In this document: piece by piece, positions 2,120-2,207 of the stretch
How positions within the stretch are numbered: the stretch's first letter is position 1
Layout: the number at the start of each line of letters is the position of its first letter
Source: a virus
IMG/VR virus record: IMGVR_UViG_3300045988_078288
Direction: 5' to 3' (one strand)
DNA length: 64,000 bases
Made by a program: the position numbers and the translations under genes
Notes under the pieces: model-generated
Databases searched by the model: none
What the model was told of the DNA's origin: nothing
The model's input: only the letters and a program-made list of their open reading frames with translations

Positions 2120-2207
2120 AGGAGAGTGCGCGATTGGTAAGGCGAAGTCCTCGGAACTTTATACGAATTCCGGGACTATGATACTGGTTCGATTCCAGTC
2201 TCTCCTC
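2120..2207 (+). tRNA. tRNA-like gene C (88 nt) with a non-canonical extended anticodon arm; isotype not assignable
   Basis: Acceptor AGGAGAG/CTCTCCT. U8 is present. D-arm is CGCG-ATTGGTAA-GGCG. Anticodon-stem strands AGTCC (2146-2150) and GGACT (2173-2177). Variable loop is 5 nt. T-arm is ACTGG-TTCGATT-CCAGT. However, 22 nt (not 7) lie between the anticodon-stem strands. Confidence 0.5.

What the first reader, a model, noticed from the sequence alone, without database searches (positions are those of the whole stretch)
2120..2207. tRNA-shaped gene with 22 nt where the 7-nt anticodon loop should be
Every tRNA element sits at its canonical offset. The acceptor AGGAGAG/CTCTCCT has 7 Watson-Crick bp, U8 is present, and the D-arm is CGCG-ATTGGTAA-GGCG. 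The anticodon-stem strands are AGTCC (2146-2150) and GGACT (2173-2177), the variable loop is 5 nt, and the T-arm is ACTGG-TTCGATT-CCAGT. But 22 nt separate the anticodon-stem strands. These extend the helix (CGGAA/TTCCG with one bulged T) and end in an 11-nt loop, CTTTATACGAA. I tried every 5-bp/7-nt window and every way of removing 15 nt, and none gives a 7-nt loop with U33. It is therefore neither a standard tRNA nor a standard 37/38 intron. It could be a decoy or nuclease-resistant tRNA variant, a tRNA scaffold displaying a small RNA, or a substrate of an unknown processing pathway.
Basis: seen in the sequence. Interest (0 to 1): 0.7.

Follow-up and report, generated by a model that had tools for sequence, protein, structure and literature searches.

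The report
Non-decoding tRNA-shaped RNA in a prophage
A Prevotella gut prophage carries a conserved tRNA-shaped RNA gene whose anticodon arm is a long hairpin in some phages and absent in sister phages, so it cannot read codons and most likely acts as a tRNA-like handle inside a cluster of structured phage RNAs.

Summary
Window 2120-2207 (+) matches the Rfam tRNA model end to end (37.3 bits, cut-off 29) with about 21 extra nt in the anticodon loop, and default and intron-aware ARAGORN reject it. It is not a decoding tRNA and not an intron-bearing tRNA. Of about 47 related contigs (IMG/VR, gut metagenomes, one Prevotella MAG), 34 carry the 86-88-nt form. Thirteen carry a 57-59-nt form at the same site in which the whole anticodon arm is replaced by a 7-nt linker. 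The acceptor, D and T stems are kept in both forms, each with one compensatory pair. The extended helix has none.

The element is the last module of a conserved non-coding array of about 900 nt, between the lysogeny switch and the early genes. The array holds a possible tRNA-like module A, an "8/4" tRNA-like module B with a hypervariable centre (six compensatory pairs), a 320-nt covarying RNA D, and then this element. The phage's RtcB ligase is an unlinked mobile cassette.

Best reading (inferred, about 0.4): a tRNA-like handle cut by RNase P and RNase Z that, together with B, excises or stabilises RNA D, with the arm as an optional add-on. A mimic/decoy role and anticodon-independent charging remain open. 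I rate it a new variant of a known kind, of moderate interest.

The parts
2120..2207 (+). Element C: tRNA-like RNA, long form, 88 nt including discriminator C2207.
   Evidence: Rfam tRNA 37.3 bits over model positions 1-71. Cloverleaf minimum-free-energy fold. Custom covariance model R1 finds it in all related loci.
2120..2126 (+). Acceptor stem 5' strand AGGAGAG, which pairs with 2200-2206 CTCTCCT. G2119 could pair with C2207 as a G-1:C73 pair.
   Evidence: 100% of cells paired in 15 variants. A6:U changes to G:C in 3 variants. G-1 and C73 are invariant.
2129..2144 (+). D arm CGCG-ATTGGTAA-GGCG, with GG in the loop.
   Evidence: C10:G25 changes to U:A in 4 short-form variants.
2146..2177 (+). 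Extended anticodon arm: AGTCC, bulged T2151, CGGAA(C), loop, (A/G)TTCCG, GGACT. It is absent from the short-form orthologs.
   Evidence: Sequence. 11 pairs with 0 compensatory changes, 1 G-U and 3 mismatched cells. Replaced by the linker TTTACTT in 13 contigs. Nucleotide diversity 0.047 where present.
2157..2167 (+). Arm loop CTTTATACGAA. With G2167, as in most homologs, it becomes the 9-nt loop TTTATACGA closed by a C-G pair.
   Evidence: No antisense target of 10 nt or more in the window.
2183..2199 (+). T arm ACTGG-TTCGATT-CCAGT with a canonical T loop.
   Evidence: 100% of cells paired. A:U changes to G:C in 4 variants.
2100..2119 (+). A/T-rich leader (GTCATATTATATAATCAAAG) between RNA D and element C. 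No substitutions in the scored columns, apart from a 3-4-nt indel. This is the expected site of an RNase P cut at 2119/2120.
   Evidence: Diversity 0.000 over 17 columns in 37 distinct sequences. Flanks listed. The cleavage site is inferred.
2208..2220 (+). Conserved trailer CTGCTTTCTAATT with no encoded CCA. This is the expected site of an RNase Z-type cut after C2207.
   Evidence: Identical in 14 of 15 variant groups, with one T-to-C variant. Host tRNA-Thr and tRNA-Gly genes also lack an encoded CCA. The cleavage is inferred.
2281..2317 (+). Terminator-like hairpin TGTGTGC...GCACACA followed by TTATTTTTT, lying between element C and ORF 2336.
   Evidence: Read from the sequence. Conserved in the alignment, diversity 0.056. 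Not listed by the scanner because its loop is longer than 8 nt.
1801..2099 (+). RNA D: a conserved structured RNA of about 300-320 nt, rich in GNRA-type loops, bracketed by modules B and C.
   Evidence: 32 distinct variants. RNAalifold finds pairs with AU/GC exchanges at alignment columns 44:97, 122:209, 172:184, 222:234 and 224:232. No Rfam match at E<=10. Always co-occurs with C.
1678..1800 (+). Module B: tRNA-like '8/4' scaffold. It has acceptor GGTCGGAA/TTCCGACC, a 5-bp D stem, a V arm at 1759-1774, T arm GCGG-TTCGACT-CCGC and discriminator A1800. The hypervariable centre lies at about 1701-1758.
   Evidence: 26 variants of 121-159 nt. 6 pairs with compensatory changes, reached by 0 of 500 shuffles. 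Diversity of the centre 0.33.
1428..1558 (+). Module A: possible tRNA-like element. It reads CGCGGAG-TG-GTGC-AAAGGTAA-GCAC-A-TGTGGG, a 65-78-nt insert, then CCCACA-GGAT, an odd T arm, CTCCGCG and A.
   Evidence: The pattern is conserved in 22 variants but the stems never vary, so there is no covariation support. The T loop is non-canonical.

Best explanation
Element C is a non-decoding tRNA-like RNA. It keeps the parts of a tRNA that end-processing enzymes recognise: the acceptor/T-arm stack, the D/T-loop elbow, a discriminator base, and no encoded CCA (host tRNA genes also lack one). The anticodon arm has become optional, either a 12-13-bp hairpin or nothing at all.

It is the 3'-terminal module of a conserved non-coding array (A, B, D, C). 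The array lies between the cI/cro-like switch and the early replication/recombination genes of temperate Prevotella phages.

The mechanism I think most likely is this. The array is transcribed as part of the early rightward transcript. Host RNase P cuts at 2119/2120 and an RNase Z-type activity cuts after C2207, with matching cuts at module B. The two tRNA-like modules would then act as punctuation that releases RNA D with defined ends and/or leaves stable tRNA-shaped products. The long arm of C and the hypervariable centre of B would be lineage-specific payloads carried on the scaffold.

Shown here: the fold, its conservation, the dispensability of the arm, the array layout, and the lack of linkage to RtcB. 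Inferred: transcription of the array, the cleavage sites, and any function of the released RNAs.
For: tRNA model match with a large loop insertion.

Orthologs of 57-59 nt at the same site lack the arm.

The acceptor, D and T stems each have one compensatory pair. 96% of cells are paired, against 40-50% for slid controls.

The G18G19-type D loop and the UUCGA T loop are kept in both forms.

Host tRNA genes next to the prophage also lack CCA.

The leader and trailer are essentially invariant.

Module B is a second tRNA-like scaffold, with 6 compensatory pairs and a centre that varies in length and sequence.

RNA D lies exactly between B and C, covaries, and always co-occurs with C.

The 152-nt type of module B occurs with both the long C (L006, L009, L016) and the short C (L011). 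The two forms have therefore been shuffled by recombination and both persist.

No internal Bacteroidota-type promoter lies immediately upstream of C. The only such motif inside the array, TAAATTTG at 1568 between A and B, is not conserved in all phage groups.
Against: There is no expression or end-mapping data, so no cleavage has been shown.

A pure handle should tolerate any arm. Yet where the arm exists its sequence, loop included, is better conserved (diversity 0.047) than the adjacent ORF (0.113). That hints at a sequence-specific role this model does not explain.

Module B's centre is never lost, although it is hypervariable.

The compensatory evidence for C rests mainly on one split, long form versus short form, so it may reflect few independent events.

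A TATAAT hexamer 5 nt upstream of A2120 could mean that C is a primary transcript with no need for RNase P. Against that, Bacteroidota promoters normally use TAnnTTTG.
Confidence: 0.4

Rival explanations
1. Trans-acting tRNA mimic or decoy. The processed tRNA-shaped RNA binds and titrates a host factor that recognises the tRNA body or acceptor end. That factor could be a tRNA-targeting defence nuclease or nucleotidyltransferase toxin, or a modification or repair enzyme. This would protect host or phage tRNAs during infection.
For: The conserved parts are the acceptor/T/D body, which such proteins recognise. The phage carries anti-defence cargo in the same early region, including RtcB and a Tad2-like protein. 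Module B's hypervariable centre within a fixed scaffold resembles an arms-race pattern. The tip of the long arm forms a 5-bp/7-nt anticodon-stem-loop look-alike with U33.
Against: Armless copies cannot mimic an anticodon loop, so anticodon nucleases cannot be the common target. RtcB is not linked to the element. A stoichiometric decoy against a catalytic enzyme is inefficient, which is a general argument and not a test. No partner protein has been identified.
Confidence: 0.2
2. Anticodon-independent aminoacylation. C would be charged by HisRS through a G-1:C73 acceptor. Module B would be charged by SerRS through its long variable arm. Each would then act as a charged but non-decoding tRNA-like molecule, for example as an aminoacyl donor or as a way to perturb tRNA-charging signals.
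For: G2119 and C2207 can form a G-1:C73 pair and are invariant in all 15 variants. By established knowledge, G-1:C73 is the main HisRS identity element and acceptor minihelices can be charged. Module B has the 8/4 branch, long D stem and long V arm described for the allo-tRNA/tRNA-Ser class, and SerRS ignores the anticodon (PMC5389517).
Against: G-1 lies in a leader that is invariant as a whole, so its conservation is not specific evidence. B's discriminator is A or G, whereas G73/U73 is typical of serine acceptors. Nothing in the phage suggests a use for such a product. None of this was tested directly.
Confidence: 0.1
3. Cis-acting regulatory leader. The whole array, including C, would control read-through from the immunity region into the early operon. 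It could do so by antitermination, by attenuation, or by RNase P cleavage that uncouples the upstream and downstream messages. The tRNA-like folds would be structural parts of that leader.
For: The array sits where lambdoid phages place nut/tR1-type control, between the cro-like and HTH genes and the early genes. Terminator-like hairpins lie at 1310-1323, just before B, and at 2281-2317.
Against: Nothing specific links tRNA-like folds to antitermination. No known antitermination RNA family matches. This rival also overlaps with the favoured model, since RNase P cleavage could serve both ends.
Confidence: 0.12
4. Decaying tRNA pseudogene or neutral relic of a former phage tRNA cluster.
For: Two variants (L029, L081) carry an uncompensated G.A mismatch in the arm. 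The window copy has a C.A mismatch. L009 has lost the first G of the D-loop GG. L081 has lost one D-stem base.
Against: The scaffold stems show compensatory changes. The element is retained at the same site in about 47 contigs from many samples, while the adjacent protein diverges to 54% identity. Diversity is lower than in the neighbouring coding sequence. Neighbouring modules B and D covary.
Confidence: 0.08
5. Genuine tRNA with a novel short intron. The intron would be excised by an endonuclease and the halves joined by the phage RtcB ligase.
For: The phage encodes RtcB (PF01139, 1e-63; phrog_1075, 2e-127). At a relaxed threshold ARAGORN proposes tRNA-Ser(gga) with a 15-nt intron.
Against: No 15-nt excision yields U33. 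The arm has no bulge-helix-bulge motif and is a continuous helix. The proposed Ser identity conflicts with the 5-nt variable loop. Orthologs lack the anticodon arm entirely. None of 35 RtcB-bearing phage loci has the element, and they share only the RtcB cassette with the window. Two loci that carry the element and extend more than 11 kb downstream lack RtcB.
Confidence: 0.03

Closest known systems
tRNA-like 3'-end processing elements (MALAT1/MEN-beta mascRNA; MHV68 TMER viral tRNA-like units). From my own knowledge, not tested here.
   Same: A cloverleaf-like element sits directly downstream of a structured non-coding RNA. The acceptor/T/D body is conserved while the anticodon region is free to vary. 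The element would be recognised by RNase P and RNase Z instead of by the ribosome.
   Different: Those examples come from eukaryotic hosts and their viruses. Here the element is in a bacteriophage of Bacteroidota, tRNA-like modules flank the RNA on both sides, and processing has not been shown.
Phage P1/P7 C4 and P4 CI immunity RNAs (Rfam C4 family). Known from my own knowledge to be processed by RNase P.
   Same: A small phage RNA near the immunity region. It has a closing stem plus two hairpins, which is the topology of the short form, and it is matured from a longer early transcript by tRNA-processing enzymes.
   Different: No Rfam C4 match. The hairpin loops here are canonical D and T loops, not antisense loops. 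No antisense target was found. The host phylum is different.
Irregular tRNA polycistrons and (8/4) allo-tRNAs (Mukai et al. 2017, PMC5389517).
   Same: Clusters of non-canonical tRNA-shaped genes, some of them in phages, proposed to act as suppressors 'and/or regulatory noncoding RNAs'. Module B shares the 8/4 acceptor branch, the long D stem and the long V arm.
   Different: Allo-tRNAs keep a 7-nt anticodon loop and can decode. B and C have no usable anticodon loop, and C can lack the arm altogether.
Bacterial Y RNAs (YrlA/Yrn1) with a tRNA-like domain (PMC4201824).
   Same: Non-decoding tRNA mimics that are substrates of tRNA enzymes. They occur in phages and in RNA-repair contexts that include RtcB.
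   Different: No Ro60/TROVE gene in the window. No Rfam Y RNA match. From my own knowledge, YrlA is circularly permuted relative to a tRNA, with its ends at the anticodon side, whereas C has normal tRNA topology.
tmRNA tRNA-like domain and plant-virus 3' tRNA-like structures.
   Same: An acceptor/T-arm mimic with no anticodon function.
   Different: ARAGORN and Rfam find no tmRNA. There is no tag reading frame. C has a complete D arm and is a self-contained unit of 58-88 nt.
Engineered 'tRNA scaffold' for expressing recombinant RNA (Ponchon and Dardel). From my own knowledge.
   Same: A foreign hairpin is grafted in place of the anticodon loop of an otherwise intact tRNA body, which provides nuclease resistance and correct processing. 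This is exactly the architecture of the long form of C and of module B.
   Different: That is a laboratory design. A natural counterpart has not, to my knowledge, been described, and no function is shown here for the payload.

Membership tests
Canonical (decoding) tRNA, Rfam RF00005 | Cloverleaf with 7-bp acceptor, D arm, T arm with a UUCGA-type loop, and a discriminator base | tested here: met
   37.3 bits against a cut-off of 29, model positions 1-71. Fold.
Canonical (decoding) tRNA, Rfam RF00005 | 5-bp anticodon stem closing a 7-nt loop with U33 and a purine at 37 | tested here: not met
   22 nt lie between the stem strands. The only 5-bp/7-nt window lies 8 bp further out and has C at position 37. 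ARAGORN with default and -i settings finds nothing.
Canonical (decoding) tRNA, Rfam RF00005 | Anticodon arm retained in orthologs | tested here: not met
   13 contigs have a 57-59-nt ortholog with no anticodon arm.
Intron-containing tRNA (archaeal/eukaryal type, endonuclease plus RtcB) | Bulge-helix-bulge motif at the exon-intron junctions, with excision restoring a 7-nt loop | tested here: not met
   The arm is a continuous helix with one bulged U, and is a perfect helix in L078. None of the 15-nt excisions gives U33.
Intron-containing tRNA (archaeal/eukaryal type, endonuclease plus RtcB) | Co-occurrence with the ligase | tested here: not met
   None of 35 RtcB loci has the element within 10 kb. 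Element-bearing loci L019 and L022 lack RtcB in more than 11 kb of downstream sequence.
Bacterial tRNA with a group I intron | Self-splicing intron of about 200 nt or more in the anticodon loop, matching group I models | tested here: not met
   The insert is 15-22 nt. There is no Rfam intron match.
Y RNA / YrlA | Encoded next to a Ro60 (TROVE) gene; matches the YrlA covariance model | tested here: not met
   No TROVE domain in about 58 window proteins scanned. No Rfam match.
tmRNA | tRNA-like domain formed by the 5' and 3' ends, plus a tag reading frame and pseudoknots | tested here: not met
   ARAGORN and Rfam find none at standard thresholds. Only noise-level 'tmRNAp' calls appear at -ps70.
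C4/CI antisense immunity RNA | Match to the Rfam C4 model; loops complementary to target sites in the same phage | tested here: not met
   No match at E<=10. No complementary site of 10 nt or more for the C arm. Duplex energies for the B centre are no better than shuffled controls in 2 of 3 groups, and the sites are not conserved.
tRNA-like processing element (mascRNA-like punctuation) | Acceptor/T/D body conserved, anticodon region unconstrained | tested here: met
   Compensatory pairs in the three scaffold stems and none in the arm. The arm is absent in 13 contigs.
tRNA-like processing element (mascRNA-like punctuation) | Located directly at the end of a functional non-coding RNA | tested here: met
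   RNA D (covarying) ends about 20 nt upstream of C and starts right after module B. D and C always co-occur.
tRNA-like processing element (mascRNA-like punctuation) | Cleavage by RNase P and RNase Z; CCA addition to the released element | not testable with these tools
   This needs RNA end-mapping or enzyme assays. The only indirect support is that neither the element nor the host tRNA genes encode CCA.
(8/4) allo-tRNA (applies to neighbouring module B) | 12-bp acceptor branch split 8/4, long D stem with a short loop, long V arm | tested here: met
   8-bp acceptor, 4-bp T stem, 5-bp D stem with a 5-8-nt loop, and a 4-5-bp V arm. 6 pairs show compensatory changes. Features taken from PMC5389517.
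(8/4) allo-tRNA (applies to neighbouring module B) | Anticodon stem with a 7-nt loop carrying an anticodon | tested here: not met
   The centre is 50-90 nt, differs completely between phage groups, and has no consistent 7-nt loop.

The most novel reading that the evidence does not exclude
The array is a natural 'tRNA-scaffold' expression system. A temperate phage would use tRNA-shaped chassis, matured and stabilised by the host's tRNA-processing enzymes, to display exchangeable RNA payloads in place of the anticodon loop. Those payloads would be the conserved 33-nt hairpin in C and the hypervariable 50-90-nt centre in B. They would act as specificity determinants in phage-host or phage-phage conflict. 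The armless C would be an empty chassis that still serves to excise RNA D.
Probability: 0.2. Interest if true: 0.8.

Novelty: new variant of a known kind. Interest (0 to 1): 0.55.

Why it matters
tRNA mimics that have given up decoding are known from eukaryotic long non-coding RNAs, herpesviruses, plant RNA viruses, tmRNA and Y RNAs. A bacteriophage array is different: tRNA-shaped modules with optional or hypervariable anticodon arms bracket a large structured RNA. My searches of the held literature and of Rfam found no description of such an array.

If the modules are processing handles, this would be bacterial 'tRNA punctuation' of a phage non-coding operon, and a natural precedent for the engineered tRNA scaffold.

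It also matters for annotation. Standard tRNA finders either miss the element or would call it an odd or intron-bearing tRNA. A co-resident RtcB invites a splicing story that the comparative data do not support.

These phages are common in human gut Prevotella, so RNA D and its tRNA-like flanks are accessible targets for metatranscriptomic checks.

Tried and rejected
1. **Intron/splicing reading.** I enumerated all contiguous 15-nt excisions and all 5-bp/7-nt windows and ran ARAGORN -i at several thresholds. Rejected.

2. **Functional link to RtcB.** I fetched 35 RtcB-bearing viral loci. None has the element, and they share only the RtcB cassette with the window. The tRNA-Met(CAT) found about 9 kb upstream of RtcB in many of them sits in a different gene context, so the similar offset is a coincidence. 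Rejected.

3. **Y RNA/Ro60.** No TROVE protein. Rejected.

4. **Antisense RNA.**
   - No complementary target of 10-11 nt or more for the C arm.
   - A 7-nt match between the C loop and UAUAAAG in RNA D (2054-2060) is not compensated when the loop varies and is absent from the logic of the short form.
   - A duplex scan of B's centre gave no consistent site. The first attempt timed out.

5. **Known RNA families.** The Rfam gathering scan of the whole window found only tRNA. The scan of 1-2500 at E<=10 found nothing else credible (the miRNA, snoRNA and lncRNA hits are noise).

6. **Homologs in cultured phages.** Megablast of 1-6000 and blastn of the element against GenBank phages gave no match.

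7. **Distant relatives via DUF4494.** Loci L055-L061 have no element, no RNA D and no tRNAs. The array is therefore confined to one phage group and deep covariation is unavailable.

8. **Coding on the minus strand** (ORFs 1615-2034 and similar). Rejected, because length differences between the B variants are not multiples of three and the substitutions are compensatory at the RNA level.

9. **attP/tRNA-fragment reading.** Rejected, because both strands of the stems co-vary and the prophage end lies about 2 kb away, next to host tRNA-Thr and tRNA-Gly.

10. **Published survey of phage structured RNAs.** No supplementary data are held for it, so I could not check whether the locus is listed.

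Full report
**1. The observation**

Window 2120-2207 on the + strand reads:

AGGAGAG-TG-CGCG-ATTGGTAA-GGCG-A-AGTCC-[TCGGAACTTTATACGAATTCCG]-GGACT-ATGAT-ACTGG-TTCGATT-CCAGT-CTCTCCT-C

- The Rfam tRNA model (RF00005) aligns over its full length at 37.3 bits (gathering score 29, E=3.2e-4 for the 64-kb window). 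It places 21 nt where the model has 6 loop positions. This is the only family in the window that reaches its Rfam threshold.
- ARAGORN finds nothing with default or intron-aware settings. At a relaxed threshold it proposes 'tRNA-Ser(gga) i(39,15)'.
- The minimum-free-energy fold is the cloverleaf with the extended arm.

- The D stem has a G.G mismatch, so it has 3 standard pairs.
- Most homologs have G at 2167, which gives a 6-bp extension and a 9-nt loop.
- One 5-bp/7-nt window does exist at the tip of the arm: GAACU-UUAUACG-AGUUC. It has U at the 33-equivalent position but C at the 37-equivalent, and it lies 8 bp too far from the elbow.

**2. Context**

The window is a temperate siphovirus-like phage.
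- A cI-like HTH repressor lies at 150-644 (-). A Bacteroidota-type promoter motif (TACCTTTG) lies at 755. Small HTH genes lie at 855-1028 and 1072-1269 (+).
- About 1 kb without credible ORFs follows. The early genes come next: ORF 2336, DUF4494, a YqaJ-like exonuclease, DUF3127 and a replication initiator.
- Head, tail and packaging genes lie further on.
- The host is Prevotella. One hit is a Prevotella sp. MAG. In a 163-kb metagenome contig the prophage end abuts host tRNA-Thr(CGT) and tRNA-Gly(CCC) genes that have Bacteroidota promoters. Those host tRNA genes do not encode CCA, and neither does the element.

**3. Homologs**

- Neighbour-protein and DNA-pattern searches gave 16 and 12 IMG/VR loci, 28 metagenome loci (several labelled human gut) and one genome contig.
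- The long form is 95-100% identical across loci, even where the adjacent protein is only 54-86% identical.
- A covariance model of the element (R1) then found a 57-59-nt version at the same position in other members of the phage group: AGGAGGG-TG-TGCA-GAATGGTAT-TGCA-TTTACTT-GCTGG-TTCGAGT-CCAGC-CCCTCCT-C. In it the whole anticodon arm (33 model positions) is replaced by a short linker.
- Altogether there are 15 distinct variants, 10 long and 5 short, in about 34 and 13 contigs respectively.

**4. What is conserved**

Counts on the 15 variants:
- The acceptor, D and T stems each contain one pair with changes on both sides: A6:U to G:C, C10:G25 to U:A, and A49:U65 to G:C.
- 96% of cells are paired, against 40-50% for slid controls.
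- The 11 arm pairs show no compensatory change, one G-U, and three mismatched cells: G.A in L029 and L081, and C.A in the window itself.
- L078 has an inserted A that pairs with the 'bulged' U and gives a perfect helix.
- G-1, C73, the A/T-rich leader and the trailer CTGCTTTCTAAT are essentially invariant.
- Where the arm exists, its nucleotide diversity (0.047) is lower than that of the adjacent ORF (0.113). It is therefore not decaying, but its helix is not supported by covariation.
- The same B type (152 nt) occurs with both long and short C. Recombination has therefore shuffled the two forms, and both persist.

**5. The element is one module of an array**

Aligning window 1200-2400 with the related loci shows that the whole non-coding stretch is conserved.

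- **Module B (1678-1800).** It has an 8-bp acceptor, a 5-bp D stem with a short GG loop, a 4-5-bp variable arm, a 4-bp T stem with a UUCGACU loop, and a purine discriminator. Six pairs show compensatory changes, which none of 500 shuffles reaches. Its centre differs completely between phage groups: total length is 121-159 nt in at least five size classes, and diversity is 0.33. The 8/4 branch, long D stem and long V arm match the description of allo-tRNAs (PMC5389517), but there is no usable anticodon loop.
- **Module A (1428-1558).** It has a tRNA-like pattern with a 65-78-nt insert. Its stems never vary and its T loop is odd, so it is only a possible module.
- **RNA D (about 1801-2099).** It lies exactly between B and C, has 32 distinct variants and several AU/GC-exchanging pairs, has no Rfam match, and always co-occurs with C.
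- **Terminator.** A terminator-like hairpin with a U tract at 2281-2317 follows C.
- **Promoters.** No Bacteroidota-type promoter motif lies just upstream of C. The only one inside the array, at 1568 between A and B, is not conserved in all phage groups.

**6. Readings that fail**

- **Intron plus RtcB.** The phage encodes RtcB (12139-13314) next to a Tad2-like anti-defence gene. But the 35 RtcB-bearing viral loci lack the element and share only the RtcB cassette with the window, and some carry two copies. Two element-bearing loci that extend more than 11 kb downstream lack RtcB. There is also no bulge-helix-bulge motif, no restorable loop, and the armless orthologs. The splicing idea is not supported.
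- **Y RNA.** No Ro60/TROVE gene and no model match.
- **tmRNA and C4/CI antisense RNA.** No model matches and no antisense targets.
- **Pseudogene.** This is contradicted by the compensatory changes, by retention across many samples, and by diversity below that of the coding neighbour.

**7. Most likely mechanism (inferred)**

What is conserved is the set of features read by tRNA end-processing enzymes: the 12-bp acceptor/T stack, the D/T elbow, the discriminator, and a CCA-less trailer like the host's own tRNA genes. What varies is the part read by the ribosome and by most synthetases. Two such modules bracket a covarying structured RNA.

The simplest account is tRNA-like punctuation. RNase P would cut at the 5' side and an RNase Z-type enzyme at the 3' side of B and C. 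That would release RNA D with defined ends and leave stable tRNA-shaped by-products. The long arm of C and the centre of B would be payloads riding on the scaffold.

I put about 0.85 on 'non-decoding tRNA-like module of a structured-RNA array' and about 0.4 on the processing mechanism. This model does not explain two things:
- the sequence conservation of the arm loop where the arm is present;
- why B's centre is hypervariable yet never lost.

Both leave room for a trans-acting mimic or decoy role, or for a specificity-determinant role.

**8. Comparison with known systems**

- In function it most resembles mascRNA-type and herpesvirus TMER tRNA-like processing elements, and the RNase P-processed C4/CI phage immunity RNAs.
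- In architecture it resembles the engineered tRNA scaffold.
- By genomic kind it resembles the 'polycistrons of irregular tRNAs' of Mukai et al.

It fails the defining tests for membership of canonical tRNA, intron-bearing tRNA, Y RNA, tmRNA and C4 RNA. I found no description of this array in Rfam or in the held literature.

**9. Verdict**

This is a real, conserved, non-decoding tRNA-like RNA. I rate it a new variant of a known kind, and its interest as moderate (0.55). The interest comes mainly from the array it belongs to and from the possibility that it is a natural tRNA scaffold.

Noticed in passing
window 1678-1800: Module B is a second tRNA-like RNA with an 8-bp acceptor, 4-bp T stem, long D stem and long variable arm (allo-tRNA-like). 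Its 50-90-nt centre is completely different in different phage groups. All versions of the centre begin with a conserved ATGGA(G/T)AGG.
   Followed up: partly
window 1801-2099: RNA D is a conserved structured RNA of about 300-320 nt with GNRA-type loops and several covarying pairs. It has no Rfam match and looks like an undescribed phage non-coding RNA.
   Followed up: partly
window 1428-1558: Module A has a tRNA-like pattern (7-bp acceptor, UG, D arm with a GG loop, 6-bp stem) with a 65-78-nt insert and a non-canonical T loop. Its stems are invariant, so the fold is unsupported. Its D loop is also the reverse complement of a TAnnTTTG promoter motif (TACCTTTG, minus strand, 1447), but that motif is not conserved in L011.
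   Followed up: partly
window 12139-14049; L090 9967-11176 and 18564-19767: RtcB RNA ligase lies next to a protein that combines crAss001_48 and Tad2-like (anti-Thoeris) domains. RtcB behaves as a mobile cassette among Prevotella phages with otherwise unrelated neighbourhoods, and some phages carry two diverged copies (about 70% identity).
   Followed up: partly
L079 2412-2700: Prophage junction. Host tRNA-Thr(CGT) and tRNA-Gly(CCC), both without an encoded CCA, and a terminator lie directly before the cI-like end of the prophage. The window therefore starts almost at the prophage end.
   Followed up: partly
window 2109-2114: A perfect TATAAT hexamer lies 5 nt upstream of the first base of the element, inside a leader that shows no substitutions. 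In short-form phages it reads TATAAA, with different spacing. I do not know whether any polymerase uses it in a Bacteroidota host.
   Followed up: no
window 2200-2222: The 3' acceptor strand plus trailer (CTCTCCTCCTGCTTTCTAA) resembles, from memory, the anti-Shine-Dalgarno 3' tail of 16S rRNA (CCUCCUUUCUAA). The 5' strand AGGAGAG resembles a Shine-Dalgarno sequence. This may simply follow from a purine/pyrimidine-rich stem.
   Followed up: no
window 1641-1677: A conserved hairpin (CUCGC...GCGGG, changing to CCCGC in other groups) followed by UUUUU lies just upstream of module B. It is terminator-like and could split the array into two transcripts.
   Followed up: no
L084 2428-2696: One metagenome contig carries a deletion of about 50 nt inside RNA D but keeps modules B and C.
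   Followed up: no
window 15074-15577, 23738-24667, 60684-61484, 18979-19989: Two HNH endonuclease genes (one with NUMOD4 motifs), an Ant/Rha-type antirepressor and a weak radical-SAM match. These are accessory genes that I did not examine further.
   Followed up: no
L016 3783-3871: For the L016 variant (loop CCTTATACGAG), default ARAGORN does report the element, as 'tRNA-??? anticodon (cg)'. Automated annotation of this element will therefore differ between near-identical phages.
   Followed up: no
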